33,382 nucleotides of DNA from a virus (taxonomy: Duplodnaviria > Heunggongvirae > Uroviricota > Caudoviricetes), in IMG/VR virus record IMGVR_UViG_2874945390_000012. One strand, given 5' to 3'. Below the pieces are notes generated by a model. The model had not been told where the DNA came from. It saw only the letters and a program-made list of their open reading frames with translations, and made no database searches. Shown here piece by piece: positions 15,938-28,443 of the stretch. The position numbers and the translations under genes were made by a program. How positions within the stretch are numbered: the stretch's first letter is position 1; the number at the start of each line of letters is the position of its first letter.

Positions 15938-16843
15938 TTATGCCGGGGTGGTGATGTACGGGCTGTCCACGATCTTCACATCCTTGTACCAGATGTTGGA
16001 ATCGCCACCGTTAACCAGCATGGCGTCAATAATGAGCTTCGCGTCCGCACGGTTTTTCGGCCCCACCACAAGGGTGGTCGGGCGGATGCCCAGCGGCTCA
16101 CCGTTGGTGCCCTTCATGCCCCGCAGCAACTCATTGGCTTTTTTGTAGTTCTCCACCGTCAGTGCTGCATGGGAACCGACGGCGGTCTGCCAGAAGCCGA
16201 AGCCCGCATTACAGCGACCGTCCACGCCGTACAGGAACTCGTGGTTCTTGAAGGTGTGCTCGCTGTTCAGATCGTCCAGGGCTTCAAACTTAAAGGCGCG
16301 TCGCGTCTGCCAGATGATGGGTTTCAGCACCTGCGACTCATCAATCAGGAACCACGGTTCGCCCTTGTCTGATGCCGGGGTGCCGACAACGTTGCTGTAC
16401 GTACCGTCACCCAGCGGGTAGTCTTCATCAAAGAAGTTCTGGCCGTCAAAGCACAGGGTGTTAAAACCGGCACACAACAGGGCGTAACACAGCTTGTCCG
16501 GGAACACAGCAGTCATACGGCCATAGCGTTCGGCGGTAATGCTGTACTGACCAATCTGGTCATCTTCAATGTGTTCACGCTTAACGCGAATGGAACTTTC
16601 CCAGAGTTTGTTGGTGATGGTGTAACCATAACCGTCCAGCGTTGCCAGCTGACGCTCACCGACCCATTCTTTGATGTCCGGTAAATCTTTCATCCAGCCG
16701 TAAGTGTTGGAGGCGGACGAACTCGGCACCTCAGAAGCAATACGATTCCACTGCGGTTCGACACCACTCAGTCCACGGGTAAAGGCGGCGCTCAGGCAGG
16801 TGGTCAGTGCATGAAGGATTTCAGAACTGATAGTCTGTGACAT
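15938..16843 (-). CDS. Major capsid protein (Mu T-like)
   Basis: 301-aa ORF after the I-like gene; size and position match Mu T. Confidence 0.85.
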   Translation of the reverse strand: MSQTISSEILHALTTCLSAAFTRGLSGVEPQWNRIASEVPSSSASNTYGWMKDLPDIKEWVGERQLATLDGYGYTITNKLWESSIRVKREHIEDDQIGQYSITAERYGRMTAVFPDKLCYALLCAGFNTLCFDGQNFFDEDYPLGDGTYSNVVGTPASDKGEPWFLIDESQVLKPIIWQTRRAFKFEALDDLNSEHTFKNHEFLYGVDGRCNAGFGFWQTAVGSHAALTVENYKKANELLRGMKGTNGEPLGIRPTTLVVGPKNRADAKLIIDAMLVNGGDSNIWYKDVKIVDSPYITTPA

Positions 16844-16850
16844 GTGTTAC

Positions 16851-17807
16851 TTACTCCTGTTTCGGTTTAGCGGCGAGGAACTCTTCCCCGGTAATACCCA
16901 TGCTGCGACACATCGCCAGTTCGGCATCGGTCAGTGTCTGCGCGGGTTTATCCTTGCCCTGGCTGGGCTTGTCGTTGTTAACCAGCGGCTGTGCACCTTT
17001 GGTGTACTCCGCAAACTGTTTGCGGCCTTCTTCCGTGCGGCAGGTGGCAAGGAACATGTCACGGTTTGCCGGGGCGACTTTTCCGGCCCCGATGGCCGCA
17101 TCCACAAGCGCCTCGGCTTCCTTCTCTTCCAGTTGCTGAAGGCGTTTTTCTGCGGTTTCGGCACGGTTCAGTGCCAGATTGTGGGTTTCCACCGGCACAA
17201 ACTTCGTCAGGTCAGGTGTCTGTGCGCGGTTCAGCGCCACCTGTTCGTTCTCCTGAAGTTGTTTAATGGCGGCCACGGTATCGTCCACCGTGGCGGATTC
17301 AGCCAGCCCAAGCAGGCCGGTGATTTGCACAGGTACTGTCATCGGGTTTTTCTCCGTATTCAGTGCAGGAAAATCCAGGTTAGGTTTGTTGGTCAGCCCG
17401 ACGCTGGACAGGCGCGTCACCGCACCGTCTGCGTCATGGAAAAACGCCGGGCTGTAATAGCGGTAGCGGCGCTCGCTCAGCATCCACCGGGCGGACTCAC
17501 TCCAGACAACACGCCCTTCAATGGTGCCGCTGTCCGTCACCCGCAGTGCTTCCACCCAGCCATACGCCGGAGCCTCTTCACCCCGCGGGCCTTTAATTTC
17601 GGTGGCATGTTCAATGTCCACCGGAATGTTGATGTCGGACGAACGGGCAACCACCTCATGTGGATTGCGGTTCATCCACGTCCGGCCATCGCGCCCGGTG
17701 AACTCACCCGCAGGAACGAGTTCAAGCCATTCCGGCAGTTGAGCGGGTGTCAGCTCAGGGATGGGTTCTGGCAGGGAAAAACACAGCGCCAGCAGTTCCG
17801 GTTGCAT
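16851..17807 (-). CDS. Head maturation protease/scaffold (Mu I-like)
   Basis: 318-aa ORF preceding the major capsid gene; Glu/Ala-rich coiled C-terminal half typical of I/Z scaffold; GGAG SD 8 nt upstream. Confidence 0.8.
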   Translation of the reverse strand: MQPELLALCFSLPEPIPELTPAQLPEWLELVPAGEFTGRDGRTWMNRNPHEVVARSSDINIPVDIEHATEIKGPRGEEAPAYGWVEALRVTDSGTIEGRVVWSESARWMLSERRYRYYSPAFFHDADGAVTRLSSVGLTNKPNLDFPALNTEKNPMTVPVQITGLLGLAESATVDDTVAAIKQLQENEQVALNRAQTPDLTKFVPVETHNLALNRAETAEKRLQQLEEKEAEALVDAAIGAGKVAPANRDMFLATCRTEEGRKQFAEYTKGAQPLVNNDKPSQGKDKPAQTLTDAELAMCRSMGITGEEFLAAKPKQE

Positions 17808-18021
17808 GTCAGTCTCCGTCGTCTGGGGTTACCGACGGTCAGTATGCGGAAGGCAGAAAAAAAGCCGGATTTACCGGCTTCACTGAAAACGGGGAAATAC
17901 CCCCTTCAAAACCCCTTCAAAAACGCCACAGACGCTTCAAAAAAGCCAGGGTGTACATTCATGCTATCAGAATAAAAAACGCGTTTCTGATGCGTTTCAG
18001 GGGTATTTACGGCGGGGTGGG
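17808..18021. promoter_or_regulatory. Central 214-bp non-coding island between F and I: terminators, repeats and the I-operon leader; candidate strong gyrase site
   Basis: No ORF in operon sense. Contains a terminator hairpin AAGCCGG-taaat-CCGGCTT plus T7 at 17857-17885, tandem TTTTGAAGGGG repeats, an AAACGCGTTT palindrome plus T-run, and a GGGGtatttCCCC hairpin. Confidence 0.6.
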
Positions 18022-18786
18022 TTATTCACTGTTAAAACGGGCCTGTCTGGCCGCCAGCTGGCGCGCCAGCTCCTGCTCACGGTTTATACCGGGATTGTAG
18101 TTCCAGCCCGGATCAATCCCTTCCGGCACATCTTCCTCTTCGCCCGTGCGTTTGTTCACCCAGCGGACAGTTCTGATTTCCGGCGCTTCGGTGTGAATGG
18201 TGCCCTGTGCCGCCAGTTGCGCATACTCACCACGGCTGACCTGACGGATGGTGCATTTGCAGCCCCAGCCGTTAGGGGCAAAATGCGTCTGCCAGAACGG
18301 ATGATCTACCGGCAGACACAGACGCGCCCATTTCACATGCTCCACCCGGTGCTCACGGGATGGCCCCAGCTCGTACATCAGATACGGCATGGCCTGCTTT
18401 GTCCGCTGAATGCGTTCCCACTGGCCCGCCGCGCGGGCGGTGCGCATGTTGGTATCAAAAATCGTGCGGAGGCGGCGGTCGCTGCCCAGTTGCACGGTGC
18501 GGGTTTCACCCGTCAGCGGATCATCCATCTCCTGTACGCCCCACCATCCGCGTTTTATCAGCAACGGTTGCAGCATCTCCCGGAACTCGCTGAACGTCTG
18601 CCCGCTTTGCAGGGCGTCTTCCACAAGGGCTTTCACATCCGACAACAAATCCAGTTGCAGCATTCTGGCCACGGGGAAGCTGTACCGGTGCTCTTCCCGC
18701 CACACATCCCGGTAATCAAAACCGGGACGCAGCTTCTTCGCCTTCAGCCACGCCAGCGCCTCTTTCGGGATGAGGGTTTCACGCAT
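18022..18786 (-). CDS. Head morphogenesis protein (Mu F-like)
   Basis: ORF starting at MRETLIPKEALAWLKAKK..., overlapping the portal stop; position after the portal as in Mu. Confidence 0.75.
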   Translation of the reverse strand: MRETLIPKEALAWLKAKKLRPGFDYRDVWREEHRYSFPVARMLQLDLLSDVKALVEDALQSGQTFSEFREMLQPLLIKRGWWGVQEMDDPLTGETRTVQLGSDRRLRTIFDTNMRTARAAGQWERIQRTKQAMPYLMYELGPSREHRVEHVKWARLCLPVDHPFWQTHFAPNGWGCKCTIRQVSRGEYAQLAAQGTIHTEAPEIRTVRWVNKRTGEEEDVPEGIDPGWNYNPGINREQELARQLAARQARFNSE

Positions 18787-20350
18787 GAGCAGTGTCTCCC
18801 AGCGCACGCGCCTTAAAGCACACCTCCGCCAGTTGCAGGGCAAAGTCGTCCGCGTTCAGCGTTTCCTGAAGCTCAGGCAGGCGTTTCAGAAAGTCATCAA
18901 AACTGTCGCACTCCTGCGCCAGTGTCAGCACCGGGTTCGTGAACGCCTCGCCGGTTTTCTGCCAGTCACGCAGGGCATCATCCACCATCTGTGCCAGTTC
19001 GTCGGGGTGTTCCCTGTTCAGGGCGACGCGCTCGCGGTTCATCGCCATATCACCCGGCATCCCGGCGGAAACCGGATGCAGAACATCAGCCCCTTCGTCT
19101 GGCTCAGCCAGGCCGAACCGGTCCCGCAGCTCCGATTCCTGAACCCGCATCCCCCGGTCAATCAGCGGCACCAGAGCATCCGTCAGCGCCTTCAGATCTT
19201 CGGCTTCACTGATACGCAGAACAACACGGGGGTAGTGCGCCTGTGGCCCGTAGTTGGCCTCGATGTAGGGCCGCACCAGATATTCATTCAGCGTGTTAGC
19301 CAGCTGTCGCGCGTCCCAGCGCACAATGTCCATGCGCACCTGATTGTGCACGTCCGCCTGTGAACGCGAACTGCCGTTATCCGTGGTCATGGTCTGCCCC
19401 AGCACAGCCTTACTGATTTGCGCATCGCACCATTCCGCCATTTCACGGAACAGTGCGCCGCCGTTATTCCGGCTAGCGGTTTCCTGCATCTCCAGTTGCA
19501 TGGACTGCGGAATGGCACACCCGGCATCCGAGGCAATGGAGGCAATCGCATCAATCAGCACGCGGATTTGCTCCTCCGTGGCGTTGGGACCGTATTTCCC
19601 CACCGTAACCGGAATGCCGAATTTTTCCGCAAATGCCCACCAGTCGCGCACGGTAAAGGATTTCAGCATGTACATCACAGCCACCAGACGGGCCAGACCG
19701 TTACGCAGCGGCAGACCGGATTTCAGACGCGGCTGGTGAACAATGAATTTTCCCGGTGTCAGCGGTACGCCATCCACCGGTTCATCGTCCGTCAGCAGGC
19801 GGAACTGGCGCAGCGTGGGCTTTTCGGCTTTCAGAAAACGGGGATCAACCCACTCATAATCACGGGGCATCCAGTGGTTGTTGCGGGTGTCCCACAGGAT
19901 TTCACAGACCGCCACGCCTTTTCCCAGCCCGTCGAGCAAATCAAACATCAGTTCGGGGATTTGCGGGGCTTCCATCAGCGCACGGATGGCGTCCGCCAGC
20001 TGCACGTCGGCATCGTCATCACTGGCGGCCACCACCACCGGTTCGATACCTGCCACTGTCAGCTTGCGGGTGCGCAGCACCGAGGCGTAATGCAAATCAC
20101 GTTCTTCCATCTCTTCGGCAAGGATAAAAAAATCACGCGTGATGCCGTCGGCGGCATTGCGCAGAATGCCTGCCAGCCTGCCGGGGTTCAGCCCGGAGGC
20201 GACGCTGATACCCGGCGAGGTCGGACGCACACCGGCATGACGCGGACGGGCCTGTGCTTCGTTGAGCGCCTCTTTTTTCAGCGTGTCTTCCTCACCGGTT
20301 GCCGGATTCAGCAGACGGCGAACGGCCCCGGCCAGTTGTTTCAGGTTCAC
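18779..20350 (-). CDS. Portal protein (Mu gp29/H-like)
   Basis: 523-aa ORF immediately after the terminase large subunit gene. Confidence 0.85.
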   Translation of the reverse strand: MNLKQLAGAVRRLLNPATGEEDTLKKEALNEAQARPRHAGVRPTSPGISVASGLNPGRLAGILRNAADGITRDFFILAEEMEERDLHYASVLRTRKLTVAGIEPVVVAASDDDADVQLADAIRALMEAPQIPELMFDLLDGLGKGVAVCEILWDTRNNHWMPRDYEWVDPRFLKAEKPTLRQFRLLTDDEPVDGVPLTPGKFIVHQPRLKSGLPLRNGLARLVAVMYMLKSFTVRDWWAFAEKFGIPVTVGKYGPNATEEQIRVLIDAIASIASDAGCAIPQSMQLEMQETASRNNGGALFREMAEWCDAQISKAVLGQTMTTDNGSSRSQADVHNQVRMDIVRWDARQLANTLNEYLVRPYIEANYGPQAHYPRVVLRISEAEDLKALTDALVPLIDRGMRVQESELRDRFGLAEPDEGADVLHPVSAGMPGDMAMNRERVALNREHPDELAQMVDDALRDWQKTGEAFTNPVLTLAQECDSFDDFLKRLPELQETLNADDFALQLAEVCFKARALGDTAHA

Positions 20351-24765: not shown

Positions 24766-25353
24766 TCATCCCCGCGTGACGGACGACACGTTGTCGATAA
24801 TTTCCAGACAGGCGTCGGTCACTTTCTCCATGCGGTTAAACCAGCCGTTCAGGTATTTGCCCTGGGCAGGTTTGGATTTGATGATGTCGGCATAAAAGCG
24901 GGAACGACGGACAATGCAGCGGGTCAGCAACCAGTCCGGGGTGGACAGGCTCACTGCCTTACGGGTACGCGGACCGATGATGCCGTCAGCATCCACATCA
25001 GCGGCTTCCTGCAAAATCCTGATAGCTTTTTTAACGCCATGCTGAACCGCCGCATCGAACACAAACATCGCCACGCCATCAGGCCACTGGTCACATCCGG
25101 CAGGCAGCCAGTAATCGCGCCAGTAAATCTGCGCGACCTGTTCGCGGGTTAAATCCCTGATGCGGGTATCCGGTTTACCGTCGCCGCTGACATCGGTTTT
25201 GCCGTCAATCACACCGTCGCGGCGGTCAGAAATGCCGTATCTGGTTTCGCCGCCACGGTCAGTGGGGTCATTGACATAGACGCCTTCGATATCGGGACGC
25301 AGAATAAAATTCAGCGCATGTTCAAAGGCCGGGGAGAATTTCAGATTTTCCAT
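24766..25353 (-). CDS. Endolysin, GH108-type muramidase with a C-terminal peptidoglycan-binding domain
   Basis: Motifs TDRGGETRYGI and DGIIGPRTR; 195 aa; first gene after the Mor/C gene and terminator; SD AGGTG upstream. Confidence 0.8.
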   Translation of the reverse strand: MENLKFSPAFEHALNFILRPDIEGVYVNDPTDRGGETRYGISDRRDGVIDGKTDVSGDGKPDTRIRDLTREQVAQIYWRDYWLPAGCDQWPDGVAMFVFDAAVQHGVKKAIRILQEAADVDADGIIGPRTRKAVSLSTPDWLLTRCIVRRSRFYADIIKSKPAQGKYLNGWFNRMEKVTDACLEIIDNVSSVTRG

Positions 25354-25410
25354 AAAAGCACCTGTGAAGCAGAGTTAAACGTGGTCTGCTTCATGGTGCC
25401 GGAGGCATAA

Positions 25411-25436
25411 AAAAAGCCGGATTTACCGGCTTCATT
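25411..25436 (-). terminator. Rho-independent terminator after the Mor/C-like gene
   Basis: Minus-strand sense TGAAGCCGGTAAATCCGGCTTTTTTT: 7-bp stem, 5-nt loop, T7; identical to the element at 17857-17885. Confidence 0.65.
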
Positions 25437-25438
25437 GA

Positions 25439-25888
25439 TTAAGGACGTCGTGGCGGACGACGAACGGGGTGAGGCAGGTTCGGGGAGTGGTAAAACAAAT
25501 CCGGCTGGTATTTATTACACTCCAGACGCCGCATCCGTTTGATGGCCTTGTAGACGGTTTTATACGTCACCCCGTAACGCTGAACCAGTTCAGGAATATT
25601 ATGGCCGTTAAAATCACGCCAGATACGCATATCCCGGACAAGATTCTCCAGAATATTCCCCCTCGGAACATAAACCTGCATCCCGCCGATATGGCGACAA
25701 ATCGCCACAACCAGCTCAAGGGAATGAGCAGGGTCTGCGCCAATCCGGGCCAGCTCTTTACGCAGCAGTGCGTTCAGTTCAGAAAGTAACGCCGGATAAG
25801 CCGTGTTTTCCTGGTAATCGTTAAGGTATTCCAGAACGCTGTCGTCCCGGAAGTCTTCGAATAAATCCTGCTCTTTCATCTGTTTCAT
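25439..25888 (-). CDS. mor: Mor/C-family transcriptional activator (closest to Mu Mor)
   Basis: ...DPAHSLELVVAICRHIGGMQVYVPRGNILENLVRDMRIWRDFNGHNIPELVQRYGVTYKTVYKAIKRMRRL closely matches the Mu Mor C-terminal HTH region as I recall it. Confidence 0.85.
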   Translation of the reverse strand: MKQMKEQDLFEDFRDDSVLEYLNDYQENTAYPALLSELNALLRKELARIGADPAHSLELVVAICRHIGGMQVYVPRGNILENLVRDMRIWRDFNGHNIPELVQRYGVTYKTVYKAIKRMRRLECNKYQPDLFYHSPNLPHPVRRPPRRP

Positions 25889-25939: not shown

Positions 25940-26434
25940 TCATAGCCGCGCAGCTCCTGCCCGGTTTCGCTCACAGGTAAAGGCACACCATGTCGGGCAA
26001 AGGCTCACGGATGCAGCGCATATGCCACTGTTTGAGCGTTTCGAGCACAACCTGCAACGATTCCCGTGACACCAGGCCAGCGTGGAAACACCCTGACCGC
26101 CATTACGTCTGGCTGTCAGGCGTTCAACGTATTTGTCCAGCGCAGCGTCGCTGATATCGGAGACGAAACCATCAAGGAACATCTGCTGCCAGATTTTATA
26201 AATCTTCTCGCGCGGTGTGACATGCCCCTTAAAGCGACGGCGGGGATGTTTTTTCTGCTTCTTAAAACCGCGCTCTTTCATGGCATCGAGCACACGTTCC
26301 AGTTGTGCAACGGAAAGCTCGCGGCAACTGGTTTTGCCCGTGCACTGCACCAGAAAGGTGCGGTAAGTGTCATCGTCGAGTTGCAGGTCACGACGGGCAA
26401 CATGAATTAATTTAATCAGGGATGTGCGGCTCAT
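25940..26434 (-). CDS. gemA: GemA-like protein (Mu gp16 family); C-terminal ~50 aa possibly out of frame
   Basis: N-terminus MSRTSLIKLIHVARRDLQLDDDTYRTFLVQCTGKTSCRELSVAQLERVLDAMKERGFKK is GemA-like; the C-terminal segment is Cys/Arg-rich and atypical, while an alternative frame reads protein-like. Confidence 0.7.
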   Translation of the reverse strand: MSRTSLIKLIHVARRDLQLDDDTYRTFLVQCTGKTSCRELSVAQLERVLDAMKERGFKKQKKHPRRRFKGHVTPREKIYKIWQQMFLDGFVSDISDAALDKYVERLTARRNGGQGVSTLAWCHGNRCRLCSKRSNSGICAASVSLCPTWCAFTCERNRAGAARL

Positions 26435-28352: not shown

Positions 28353-28443
28353 TTCCTCTGGTCCTGATTCAGGCGCGAGCAATCCCCTGACGCATCGCGC
28401 CATAATTAAAAGAAAGTGAATTAATTAAATATTCGTCGTGGTA

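What the first reader, a model, noticed from the sequence alone, without database searches (positions are those of the whole stretch)
25354..25440. Conserved ~45-bp element upstream of both the lys and I operons
TGAAGCCGGTAAATCCGGCTTTTTTT is identical at 25411-25436 and 17857-17885 (minus-strand sense), followed in both cases by a similar box TGCCTyCnGCA. Each copy sits ~50-60 nt upstream of the first start codon of a late operon (endolysin; I-like gene). The hairpin plus T7 looks like an intrinsic terminator closing the upstream operon, but the conserved downstream box and the fixed distance to the start codon suggest it is also part of the late promoter or activator-binding region.
Basis: seen in the sequence. 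Interest (0 to 1): 0.55.

Follow-up and report, generated by a model that had tools for sequence, protein, structure and literature searches.

The report
Mor-activated late promoters overlapping terminators
The repeated element is two copies of a promoter type already characterised in phage Mu (the Mor-activated middle promoter Pm), each overlapping a transcription terminator; this Mu-like E. coli prophage uses it directly in front of its lysis and head-gene operons, so it is a real regulatory element of a known kind.

Summary
It sits inside a 42-nt repeat that is 38/42 identical.

The window is a Mu-like E. coli prophage with one Mor/C-family gene, 62% identical to Mu Mor. Both copies are homologues of Mu's middle promoter Pm:
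- Mu's mapped Mor site (-51..-36) is AGTAA-AGCCGG-TTAAT. Here it is AATGA-AGCCGG-TAAAT (lys) and AGTGA-AGCCGG-TAAAT (I).
- Both keep Mu's 22-nt gap to a -10 hexamer (CACCAT, CATACT) and have no -35.

The Mor site covers 3 nt upstream of the hairpin, its left arm and its loop. The right arm plus T7 completes an intrinsic terminator for the upstream operon.

Comparative support:
- Relatives keep the 16-bp site at I but lack the right arm and T-run.
- Both promoters of a phage share the same right half-site in 28/28 loci.
- TAAAT versus TTAAT tracks a Lys/Arg change in the Mor helix-turn-helix region.

A second, covarying hairpin would occlude the lys ribosome-binding site in read-through RNA only, as in T4 gene e. 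Nothing here has been tested experimentally. Verdict: new member of a known kind.

The parts
25439..25888 (-). mor: the only Mor/C-family activator gene in the window. It is the last gene of the early operon.
   Evidence: Pfam Mor, E 1e-30. 62% identical to Mu Mor and 32% to Mu C, with the helix-turn-helix region RYGVTxxTVYKAIxRMRRL conserved. tblastn finds no second homologue in the window.
25421..25436 (-). Mor-type binding site of the lys promoter, AATGA-AGCCGG-TAAAT, predicted to span -51..-36.
   Evidence: 13/16 identical to Mu Pm's mapped Mor site AGTAAAGCCGGTTAAT. Conserved in all relatives, including the 3 nt outside the hairpin.
25409..25433 (-). Intrinsic terminator of the early operon: stem-loop GAAGCCGG-TAAAT-CCGGCTTT (25433-25413) with T7 (25415-25409). 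It overlaps the Mor site and the -35 region and spacer of the promoter.
   Evidence: Terminator scan. -12.6 kcal/mol, z -3.2. Coordinates checked.
25393..25408 (-). Promoter spacer box ATGCCTCCGG (25408-25399) and -10 hexamer CACCAT (25398-25393). There is no -35 and no extended -10.
   Evidence: The 22-nt distance from the Mor site matches Mu Pm. In every distinct real promoter instance among relatives, position 2 of the hexamer is A and position 6 is T; the one exception is a duplicated partial site in L084. The -35 window reads ATCCGG/TCCGGC. No sigma-70 consensus site was called there.
25385..25385 (-). Predicted transcription start of the lys operon. Inferred by analogy with Mu Pm, where +1 lies 8 positions after the last base of the hexamer.
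   Evidence: Not mapped experimentally.
25357..25400 (-). Fold-back leader hairpin. The 5' strand is GGCACC-A-TGAAGCAGA (covering the -10 through +1). The 3' strand is TCTGCTTCA-CA-GGTGCT, which contains the Shine-Dalgarno AGGTG. It can form only in RNA that reads in from upstream.
   Evidence: -22.9 kcal/mol, z -4.7. Opening the ribosome-binding site costs 18.1 kcal/mol in read-through RNA and 4.8 in promoter-initiated RNA; 0 of 100 shuffles of the 5' part reach 18.1. Different stem sequences occupy the same place in relatives.
24766..25353 (-). lys, a GH108 endolysin and the first gene of the operon served by the first copy.
   Evidence: Pfam Glyco_hydro_108 plus PG_binding_3. PGAP annotation.
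17869..17884 (-). Mor-type binding site of the I promoter, AGTGA-AGCCGG-TAAAT.
   Evidence: 14/16 identical to Mu Pm's Mor site. Retained in relatives whose I promoter has no terminator.
17857..17881 (-). Intrinsic terminator closing the lys-terminase-portal-F operon: stem-loop 17881-17861 and T7 17863-17857. It overlaps the I promoter.
   Evidence: (-12.8 kcal/mol, z -3.5). Absent at this position in 11 related loci.
17841..17856 (-). Spacer box CTGCCTTCCG (17856-17847) and -10 hexamer CATACT (17846-17841). Predicted +1 is G at 17833.
   Evidence: The box plus -10 aligns with Mu PI CCTCCCGCAAACTGAC.
17816..17838 (-). Short leader hairpin CCGTCG-N11-CGACGG, with its 5' arm at -6..+1. It is the weak counterpart of the lys fold-back structure.
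   Evidence: z -1.0; 8.0 versus 3.6 kcal/mol; 23/100 shuffles reach it. Not significant in this phage, but strong in related I leaders.
16851..17807 (-). I, the Mu-like head protease/scaffold gene and the first gene of the operon served by the second copy.
   Evidence: Pfam Mu-like_Pro, E 6e-45.

Best explanation
Each copy is a compact regulatory module that does two jobs, one read as DNA and one as RNA.

As DNA, it is a sigma-70 promoter of the Mu Pm type. It has no -35 element, so it needs the phage's Mor protein. A Mor dimer would bind the 16-bp element A(A/G)TGA-AGCCGG-TAAAT, centred about 43.5 bp upstream of the start, and recruit RNA polymerase to the -10 hexamer (CACCAT or CATACT) 22 nt downstream.

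As RNA, transcribed from upstream, the same stretch folds into GAAGCCGG-TAAAT-CCGGCUUU followed by U7. That is an intrinsic terminator, ending the early operon after mor and ending the lys-to-F operon before I.

The phage has Mor but no C protein. Mor therefore switches on the lysis and head operons directly, in a two-step cascade instead of Mu's three steps.

Shown here: the homology, the spacing, the conservation pattern and the cognate activator gene. Inferred: Mor binding, the start sites, and actual termination.

A further inferred layer concerns RNA that escapes the terminator at lys. Such RNA carries the -10/+1 region, which pairs with the Shine-Dalgarno region and blocks translation. 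RNA started at the Mor promoter lacks that strand and can be translated.
For: 1. Direct homology to Mu Pm.
- Mu 9163-9250 reads ...GTAAAC-AGTAAAGCCGGTTAAT-CCGGC-TTTTTTT-ACGTCCTCAA-TATCCT-GTGATGA-A....
- Primer JM1 in PMC4390567 fixes -57 = G and -52 = C. The published Mor site at -51..-36 (PMC4287176) is therefore AGTAA-AGCCGG-TTAAT. This matches 'two 5-bp inverted repeats separated by a G/C-rich hexanucleotide, centred at -43.5'.
- The window copies match that site at 13/16 and 14/16 positions and keep the same 22-nt gap to the -10.
- A cloning primer named 'Mu Pm nt9163' contains this hairpin (PMC9239132).

2. Cognate activator. The gene ending 2 nt upstream of the lys-copy site is 62% identical to Mu Mor, with a nearly identical helix-turn-helix region, and only 32% identical to Mu C. 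It is the only family member in the window.

3. The module travels with the downstream operon.
- In relatives, unrelated secreted or membrane-protein genes lie between mor and the element. The element stays directly upstream of lys or I.
- The module is near-invariant while Lys and I proteins diverge to about 60% identity. This comes partly from loci selected for the exact 26-mer. It is also seen in loci found through the Mor protein.

4. Natural dissection. Eleven related loci have an I promoter with an intact AGTGAAGCCGGTTAAT but no right arm and no T-run. The constrained unit is therefore the 16-bp site, not the hairpin.

5. Concerted variation.
- The right half-site is the same at both promoters of a phage in 28/28 loci. 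The same holds in Raoultella, Kluyvera and Brenneria genomes.
- TAAAT always accompanies ...YKAI-K-RMRR (49 loci) and TTAAT always accompanies ...YKAI-R-RMR (39 loci, including Mu).

6. -10 signature. A at hexamer position 2 and T at position 6 in every distinct real promoter instance.

7. Terminator..

8. Fold-back. In 15 of 17 independent leader families, at most 1 of 100 shuffles of the 5' part reaches the observed cost of opening the ribosome-binding site. Medians are 15.3 kcal/mol for read-through RNA, 4.3 for promoter-initiated RNA and 6.4 for shuffled controls.
Against: - No experiment supports any of this for this phage. Mor binding, start sites and termination all rest on homology.
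- The half-sites here are less symmetric than Mu's: 3/5 complementary against 4/5 in Mu.
- The Lys/Arg versus A/T association may reflect a single evolutionary event, so it is not independent statistical evidence.
- Part of the comparative set was collected by exact match to the 26-mer, which inflates apparent conservation.
- The same hairpin plus T-run occurs as a plain terminator in unrelated Bacteroidota, Ignavibacteria and Alphaproteobacteria. The hairpin alone is therefore not diagnostic.
- No third Mor-type site was found for the tail genes, so their transcription is unexplained.
- The fold-back structure is not significant at the window's I copy.
Confidence: 0.82

Rival explanations
1. 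The element is only a duplicated intrinsic terminator. The late transcripts start elsewhere or are made by read-through.
For: Canonical terminator anatomy at both sites. The identical hairpin acts as an apparently ordinary terminator in unrelated bacteria. A further terminator-like hairpin lies just after the F-like gene (17970-17999), so termination signals are common in this spacer.
Against: Conservation extends to the 3 nt upstream of the stem and to a correctly spaced -10 hexamer. Relatives keep the 16-bp site with no hairpin or T-run. The sequence is homologous to a promoter with a mapped activator site. Terminators normally tolerate loop and compensatory stem changes, yet none are seen apart from the one loop base that tracks Mor.
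Confidence: 0.06
2. The activator binds the whole perfect inverted repeat GAAGCCGG-N5-CCGGCTTC, centred near -37, rather than the offset 16-bp site.
For: The hairpin is the most obvious dyad in the region, and dimeric helix-turn-helix proteins usually bind symmetric sites. This was my first working idea.
Against: In Mu the mapped site is the offset element at -51..-36. Eleven related I promoters lack the right arm but keep the offset element intact. The bases upstream of the stem (A-R-T) are conserved although they lie outside the inverted repeat.
Confidence: 0.05
3. The module is a transcription attenuator. The promoter lies further upstream, and a phage factor suppresses the hairpin+T7 terminator to allow late expression.
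For: The terminator sits in what would be a 5' leader for read-through RNA, and a second structured hairpin follows it.
Against: No antiterminator gene or alternative pairing with the terminator stem was seen. There is no Rfam match. For the lys copy, the upstream sequence is the mor coding region. The terminator is dispensable at I in relatives. Read-through RNA is predicted to have an occluded ribosome-binding site, the opposite of what an antitermination design needs.
Confidence: 0.04

Closest known systems
Phage Mu middle promoter Pm (Mor-dependent), with the hairpin and T7 that follow mor
   Same: - A 16-bp Mor site of the form 5 bp - AGCCGG - 5 bp, at 13-14/16 identity.
- The site overlaps the left arm and loop of a GC-rich hairpin followed by T7.
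- A 22-nt gap to a -10 hexamer, no -35 and no extended -10.
- The site starts immediately after the mor stop codon.
- A downstream hairpin whose 5' arm lies between the -10 and +1.

   Different: In Mu there is one copy, and it drives the middle operon (gp18 through C). Here there are two copies, and they drive the lys and I operons directly. The half-site sequences differ: ARTGA/TAAAT here against AGTAA/TTAAT in Mu. That the Mu hairpin is the early-transcript terminator 't9.2' is my recollection of Howe-lab papers from 1989-1990; I could not check it in the held library.
Phage Mu C-dependent late promoters Plys and PI
   Same: They sit in the same genomic positions: upstream of lys, and between the F/G genes and I. 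They serve the same operons. The core of the I promoter is homologous: window CCTTCCGCATACTGAC against Mu CCTCCCGCAAACTGAC, each followed by a hairpin and then the ATG.
   Different: Mu uses the C protein and a TTAT-N5-6-ATAA box (PMC12867686). The window has neither the C gene nor that box. The activator site has been exchanged for a Mor-type site while the core promoter was kept.
Mu-like phages lacking the middle operon (Mannheimia 3927AP2 and phiMhaMu2, Haemophilus parasuis SuMu)
   Same: lys lies immediately downstream of mor and there is no C gene. This was noted in PMC4553209.
   Different: That paper left open what replaces C. In this window, Pm-type Mor sites in front of both lys and I give a concrete answer for this enterobacterial lineage. 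I did not examine those Pasteurellaceae phages.
T4 gene e (lysozyme), soc and I-TevI: translation gated by a hairpin that contains the late promoter
   Same: Long transcripts from upstream sequester the ribosome-binding site in a hairpin. The late promoter lies in the DNA that encodes the 5' strand of that hairpin, so late transcripts lack this strand and are translated (PMC3014915). The predicted lys leader here has the same geometry.
   Different: The promoter type differs: sigma-70 plus Mor here, gp55 in T4. Here an intrinsic terminator precedes the hairpin. For this phage the mechanism is only predicted. A comparable logic, IS10 'fold-back inhibition', is cited from memory only.

Membership tests
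Mu Pm-type Mor-dependent promoter | A 16-bp element with two 5-bp inverted repeats separated by a G/C-rich hexanucleotide | tested here: met
   AATGA-AGCCGG-TAAAT and AGTGA-AGCCGG-TAAAT, against Mu AGTAA-AGCCGG-TTAAT. Caveat: only 3/5 of the half-site positions are complementary here, against 4/5 in Mu.
Mu Pm-type Mor-dependent promoter | Element centred about 43.5 bp upstream of +1, which puts 22 nt between the element and the -10 hexamer | tested here: met
   22 nt at both copies, as in Mu, and 22-23 nt in all relatives. The +1 itself is inferred, not mapped.
Mu Pm-type Mor-dependent promoter | Recognisable -10 hexamer, no -35 hexamer, no extended -10 (TGn) | tested here: met
   CACCAT and CATACT. 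The -35 window ATCCGG/TCCGGC matches TTGACA at no more than 2 of 6 positions. The bases before the hexamers are GG and CG. No consensus promoter was called.
Mu Pm-type Mor-dependent promoter | Cognate Mor-family activator encoded by the same phage | tested here: met
   25439-25888(-): Pfam Mor, 62% identical to Mu Mor, helix-turn-helix region conserved. A residue in that region covaries with the site.
Mu Pm-type Mor-dependent promoter | Proximal UP-element subsite (A-rich, -57..-52) | tested here: inconclusive
   The lys copy reads TTAATC, with A at -55 and -54 as in Mu. The I copy reads GTTTTC. Both are A/T-rich but neither matches Mu's GTAAAC.
Mu Pm-type Mor-dependent promoter | Transcription initiation and a DNase footprint that depend on Mor | not testable with these tools
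   Needs in vivo or in vitro assays.
Intrinsic (Rho-independent) terminator | G+C-rich stem-loop immediately followed by a U-tract, on the strand of the upstream genes and after their stop codon | tested here: met
   An 8-pair stem, a 5-nt loop and T7. -12.6 and -12.8 kcal/mol. The stem starts 5 nt after the mor stop codon and about 140 nt after the F-like stop codon.
Intrinsic (Rho-independent) terminator | Transcript 3' ends at the U-tract | not testable with these tools
   Needs Term-seq or S1 mapping.
Mu C-dependent late promoter | TTAT-N5-6-ATAA C box centred at -43.5, and a C activator gene | tested here: not met
   No such box in -55..-30 of either copy. No C orthologue; the best match is the Mor gene at 32% identity.
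T4 gene e-type promoter-dependent translational gating | The ribosome-binding site is sequestered in upstream-initiated RNA, and the late +1 lies within or after the 5' strand of the inhibitory helix | tested here: inconclusive
   Predicted clearly for the lys copy (18.1 versus 4.8 kcal/mol; 0/100 shuffles) and for 15 of 17 leader families. Not significant for the window's I copy. The +1 is inferred and there are no translation data.

The most novel reading that the evidence does not exclude
Mor- and C-dependent promoters of Mu-like phages, including Mu's own Pm and PI, routinely place their -10/+1 region inside the 5' strand of a hairpin that occludes the ribosome-binding site of the first gene. 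Together with the overlapping terminator this makes a double lock. RNA arriving from the upstream operon is mostly terminated, and what leaks through cannot be translated. Only RNA started by the activator makes protein, which matters most for the endolysin. As far as I could find, this T4 gene e-like logic has not been described for Mu-type phages. My literature search for it was limited.
Probability: 0.45. Interest if true: 0.5.

Novelty: new member of a known kind. Interest (0 to 1): 0.3.

Why it matters
The element explains how a widespread group of Mu-like enterobacterial prophages times lysis and head assembly without Mu's C protein. These prophages occur in E. coli including STEC strains, and in Raoultella, Kluyvera, Brenneria, Serratia, Pluralibacter and Trabulsiella. 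In them, Mor acts directly on Pm-type promoters placed before lys and I. An earlier comparative paper on other Mu-like phages left open what replaces C (PMC4553209).

The element is also a compact example of one sequence read in two ways, as an activator site in DNA and as a terminator in RNA. Natural variants separate the two functions.

Practical uses:
- It gives a search motif for late promoters in Mu-like prophages.
- It offers a candidate specificity pair for engineering orthogonal Mor/promoter sets: Lys/Arg in the Mor helix-turn-helix region against A/T at -39.
- It yields a testable prediction of promoter-dependent translation of the endolysin.

None of this overturns what is known about Mu regulation.

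Tried and rejected
- Whole hairpin as the activator dyad, centred at -37. This was my first idea. I rejected it after mapping Mu's site with primer JM1 and finding I promoters without a right arm.
- A third or fourth copy, equivalents of Mu PP and Pmom. No further match at 3 mismatches or fewer. The best other 16-mer matches score 13/16 and lie inside genes. The relaxed half-site pattern gives three extra hits (229-244, 4468-4483, 28415-28430) with no T-run or -10 context. The promoter for the tail genes remains unidentified.
- A known RNA family. Rfam at gathering thresholds finds nothing in the window.
- Named phage relatives. megablast of 9 kb against INPHARED found only a 74% partial hit to Klebsiella phage Kp4866-3. 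A 51-nt blastn query found nothing useful, not even Mu, presumably because of query length and low-complexity masking.
- Primary literature. The original papers on Pm and Plys mutagenesis (PMC145667, PMC1205707) and a Mu review (PMC4486318) are not held. Searches for 't9.2' found nothing usable. The statement that Mu's hairpin is the early terminator therefore rests on memory.
- Locating Mu's Plys C box from sequence alone. I could not place it confidently and make no claim about it.
- A column-wise covariation count for the leader hairpin. I did not run it because the pairing register differs between families, and used per-family shuffle tests instead.
- The first accessibility metric (mean unpaired probability) was too crude and misplaced some start codons. 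I replaced it with the opening-energy calculation.
Full report
**What the window is**

The genes run on the minus strand. Pfam hits identify:
- a GemA gene (25940-26434);
- a Mor-family activator (25439-25888);
- a GH108 endolysin (24766-25353);
- a Mu-type portal (18779-20350);
- an F-like head morphogenesis gene (18022-18843);
- the Mu-like I protease/scaffold (16851-17807);
- the gpT major head protein (15938-16843).

A long ORF at the upstream end (31286-33382) lies where Mu's transposase gene would be, but I did not test it.

The region is 99% identical to a prophage in E. coli FDAARGOS_943. It is 90-98% identical to prophages in about 50 other complete E. coli genomes, including STEC strains. 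PGAP annotates the same functions there. No close relative is present among deposited phage genomes.

**The observation**

The 26-mer TGAAGCCGGTAAATCCGGCTTTTTTT occurs exactly twice, at 25409-25434 and 17857-17882, both on the minus strand. There is no other copy at up to three mismatches, and none in 100 shuffles.

The similarity extends to 42 nt (25397-25438 versus 17845-17886), with 38/42 identical. The downstream boxes are TGCCTCCGGCA and TGCCTTCCGCA. The T-runs end 55 and 49 nt before the lys and I start codons.

The stem-loop plus T7 satisfies the intrinsic-terminator scan. It folds at -12.6 and -12.8 kcal/mol, about 3 standard deviations better than shuffles.

**What it is**

The decisive comparison is with phage Mu itself. 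Directly after Mu's mor gene the sequence reads:

ctgtaaacAGTAAAGCCGGTTAATccggcTTTTTTTacgtcctcaaTATCCTgtgatgaA

The window reads:

- lys copy: aatcAATGAAGCCGGTAAATccggcTTTTTTTatgcctccggCACCATgaagcagA
- I copy: ttcAGTGAAGCCGGTAAATccggcTTTTTTTctgccttccgCATACTgaccgtcG

The Mu region is the middle promoter Pm. [quoted passage not shown] The element consists of two 5-bp inverted repeats separated by a G/C-rich hexanucleotide. Pm has a -10 hexamer but no -35 and no extended -10 (PMC4287176; PMC4390567).

Primer JM1 of PMC4390567 spans -87..-48 and places its degenerate positions at -57 and -52. This fixes the numbering on the Mu sequence:
- the Mor site is AGTAA-AGCCGG-TTAAT;
- the -10 hexamer TATCCT lies at -13..-8;
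- +1 is the A after GTGATGA.

A cloning primer named 'Mu Pm nt9163' in PMC9239132 contains the same hairpin.

The window's two copies match Mu's Mor site at 13/16 and 14/16 positions. They keep exactly the same 22-nt gap to a hexamer with A at position 2 and T at position 6.

The protein encoded immediately upstream of the lys copy is 62% identical to Mu Mor. Its helix-turn-helix region (RYGVTYKTVYKAIKRMRRL) is almost unchanged from Mu's. It is only 32% identical to Mu C. tblastn finds no second Mor/C gene in the window.

**Anatomy**

The activator site is offset from the hairpin. It comprises 3 nt upstream of the stem, the left arm (which is the G/C-rich spacer AGCCGG) and the loop (the right half-site TAAAT). 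The right arm and the T-run fall at about -35..-24, which is the -35 region and spacer of the promoter.

Window coordinates are listed under 'parts' and were verified.

**Comparative evidence that the promoter reading is right**

1. The module stays with the downstream operon. An exact-match scan of IMG/VR found the 26-mer in 57 stretches. Their flanks are otherwise very divergent (Lys and I proteins down to about 62% identity), but the element always lies about 50 nt upstream of a lys or I homologue. The upstream gene is often not mor. It can be one of several unrelated genes for secreted or membrane proteins inserted between mor and the element.

2. The same architecture appears in loci found without using the element. 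These were collected through the Mor protein. They show the site, 22-23 nt, then a hexamer of the form nAnnnT, then G.

3. A natural dissection separates site from terminator. In one lineage (Mor about 64% identical; 11 loci) the I promoter keeps AGTGAAGCCGGTTAAT intact. It is followed by CCACCTG..., with no right arm and no T-run. What is constrained is the 16-bp site. The terminator is an optional addition at that position.

4. Variation is concerted. The right half-site is TAAAT in some phages and TTAAT in others, but it is the same at both promoters of a phage in 28/28 loci. The same holds in Raoultella, Kluyvera and Brenneria genomes. TAAAT is always found with Mor proteins reading ...YKAI-K-RMRR (49 loci, at least ten variants of the region). 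TTAAT is always found with ...YKAI-R-RMR (39 loci, including Mu). This is what a protein-DNA contact predicts. It may rest on a single evolutionary switch, so it is suggestive only.

5. The hairpin alone is not specific. The same hairpin and T-run occur in Bacteroidota, Ignavibacteria and an alphaproteobacterium with none of the flanking promoter features. The hairpin by itself is just a good terminator, and the specificity lies in the whole module.

**How it most likely works**

Early transcription from the left end would run through mor and stop at the hairpin/U7, inside the lys promoter. Once Mor accumulates, it would bind -51..-36 and recruit RNA polymerase to start about 7 nt after CACCAT.

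The lys operon runs through the lysis genes, terminase, portal and the F-like gene. It would end at the second terminator, where a second Mor-dependent promoter starts the I operon. Placing the terminator within the promoter should also shield the promoter from occlusion by incoming polymerases. That last point is inference.

Because no C gene is present, the cascade has two tiers rather than Mu's three. The mor-lys adjacency without C has been noted in Mannheimia and Haemophilus parasuis Mu-like phages, where the replacement for C was left open (PMC4553209).

At the I promoter, the sequence downstream of about -25 is homologous to Mu's C-dependent PI (CCTyCCGCAwACTGAC followed by a hairpin). 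Upstream of that point, Mu has its C-site region where the window has the Mor site. That looks like an exchange of activator sites on a conserved core promoter.

**A second layer: the leader hairpin**

Between the -10 and the start codon, every family has a hairpin whose sequence differs but whose position is constant. Its 5' arm begins at the last base of the -10 hexamer, or within 3 nt after it, and ends around +1. In the lys leaders an outer helix also pairs the spacer/-10 region with the Shine-Dalgarno sequence, and often with the AUG.

A transcript started at the Mor promoter would lack the 5' strand. A transcript reading through the terminator would contain it.

- Folding the read-through leaders gives z-scores of -3 or lower in 12 of 15 families.
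- The energy needed to open the ribosome-binding site has a median of 15.3 kcal/mol in read-through RNA. It is 4.3 in promoter-initiated RNA and 6.4 when the 5' part is shuffled.
- In 15 of 17 families, at most 1 of 100 shuffles reaches the observed value.
- For the window's lys copy the figures are 18.1 versus 4.8, with 0/100 shuffles. For its I copy they are 8.0 versus 3.6, with 23/100, which is not significant.
- Mu's own Pm and PI leaders show the effect in the opening-energy test. Mu Pm's overall fold z-score is only -1.4.

This is the logic established for T4 lysozyme gene e, soc and I-TevI (PMC3014915). Here it is a prediction.

**Comparison with what is known, and novelty**

The element is a member of the Pm-type, Mor-dependent promoter class. 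All sequence-level defining features are met. Mor-dependent initiation cannot be tested here.

It is not a C-type late promoter: it has no TTAT-N5-6-ATAA box (PMC12867686) and the phage has no C gene. It is also a standard intrinsic terminator.

What is new is modest:
- duplication of the Pm module in front of lys and I in a C-less lineage;
- natural variants that separate the site from the terminator;
- the half-site/Mor residue association;
- the predicted fold-back gate.

I rate it a new member of a known kind, of moderate-to-low interest to a specialist.

**Limits**

- Everything rests on sequence, homology and folding predictions.
- Part of the comparative sample was selected by exact match to the 26-mer.
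- Many loci are close relatives, so counts of loci are not counts of independent events.
- The promoter that serves the tail genes was not found.
- That Mu's hairpin is the early-transcript terminator is from my memory of the older literature, which is not in the held library.

Noticed in passing
window 17886-17975 (minus strand), upstream of the I promoter: Phased T-tract repeats (TTTTTTGAAGCG...GTTTTTGAAGGGGTTTTGAAGGGGG) align with Mu's G-I intergenic region. The Mu record annotates the gyrase cut site of the strong gyrase site in that region. The window may carry an equivalent central gyrase site next to the I promoter.
   Followed up: partly
L003, L004, L009, L010, L014, L015, L021, L024, L025, L032, L048, L056 and others; also L090-L107 immediately after mor: In many relatives, unrelated genes for signal-peptide or membrane proteins (105-171 aa) are inserted between mor and the lys promoter module. 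Several start at an ATG that overlaps or closely follows the mor stop codon. This position looks like a hotspot for cargo genes that would be expressed with the early operon.
   Followed up: partly
L129-L131, L135, L138, L140, L141, L145, L146, L148 (Ignavibacteria, Algoriphagus, Crocinitomicaceae, Bacteroidaceae, an alphaproteobacterium): The identical 24-nt hairpin plus T-run (TRAAGCCGGTWAATCCGGCTTTTT) occurs in unrelated bacteria without any of the promoter features. My estimate of the random expectation in 596 Gb is about 0.02. This looks like convergence on a favourable terminator sequence.
   Followed up: partly
window ~190-215 (minus strand), just after the stop of ORF 240-977: Another terminator-like hairpin with a TTAAT loop, GCAGCGG-TTAAT-GCCGCTG-TTTTAT, lies near the right end of the prophage. 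A relaxed half-site match, AGTGATCCCACTTAAT, lies at 229-244. No -10 or gene follows, so this is probably only the terminator of the last late operon.
   Followed up: no
window 17970-17999 (minus strand): A second, weaker terminator-like hairpin, AAACGC-ATCAGAA-(A)CGCGTT followed by TTTTT, lies about 25 nt after the F-like gene's stop codon. It is upstream of the T-tract region and the main terminator, so the lys operon may have tandem terminators.
   Followed up: no
L073, L091, L099, L072, L087 (IMG/VR contigs with Mu-type Mor): These phages carry a Mor site and hairpin identical to Mu Pm, but the site directly precedes a GH108-type lys gene (MPEFSPAF...). Their I promoter looks like Mu's C-type PI. 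They may be a mixed arrangement, with lys under Mor and I under C. I did not locate their C gene.
   Followed up: no
L084 ~2409-2480: A tandem duplication of the hairpin/T-run/spacer part of the Pm-type module (…AATCCGGCTTTTTTTACGCCCTCAATGCCGGTTAATCCGGCTTTTTTTACGCCCTCAATATTCT…). This is a possible intermediate showing how the module gets duplicated.
   Followed up: no
L058 1385-1420 (Mu 10384-10419): Mu's C gene is also followed at once by an inverted repeat, ATAACCGGCA-TCC-TGCCGGTTAT, lying between the C stop codon and lys. A terminator abutting the next promoter may therefore be a general feature of the Mu cascade. I could not place the Plys C box with confidence from sequence alone.
   Followed up: no
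window 1-15900: No Mor-type site or other recognisable promoter was found ahead of the tail and baseplate genes. Either the I transcript runs about 17 kb to the right end, or these genes use a promoter of a different kind.
   Followed up: partly
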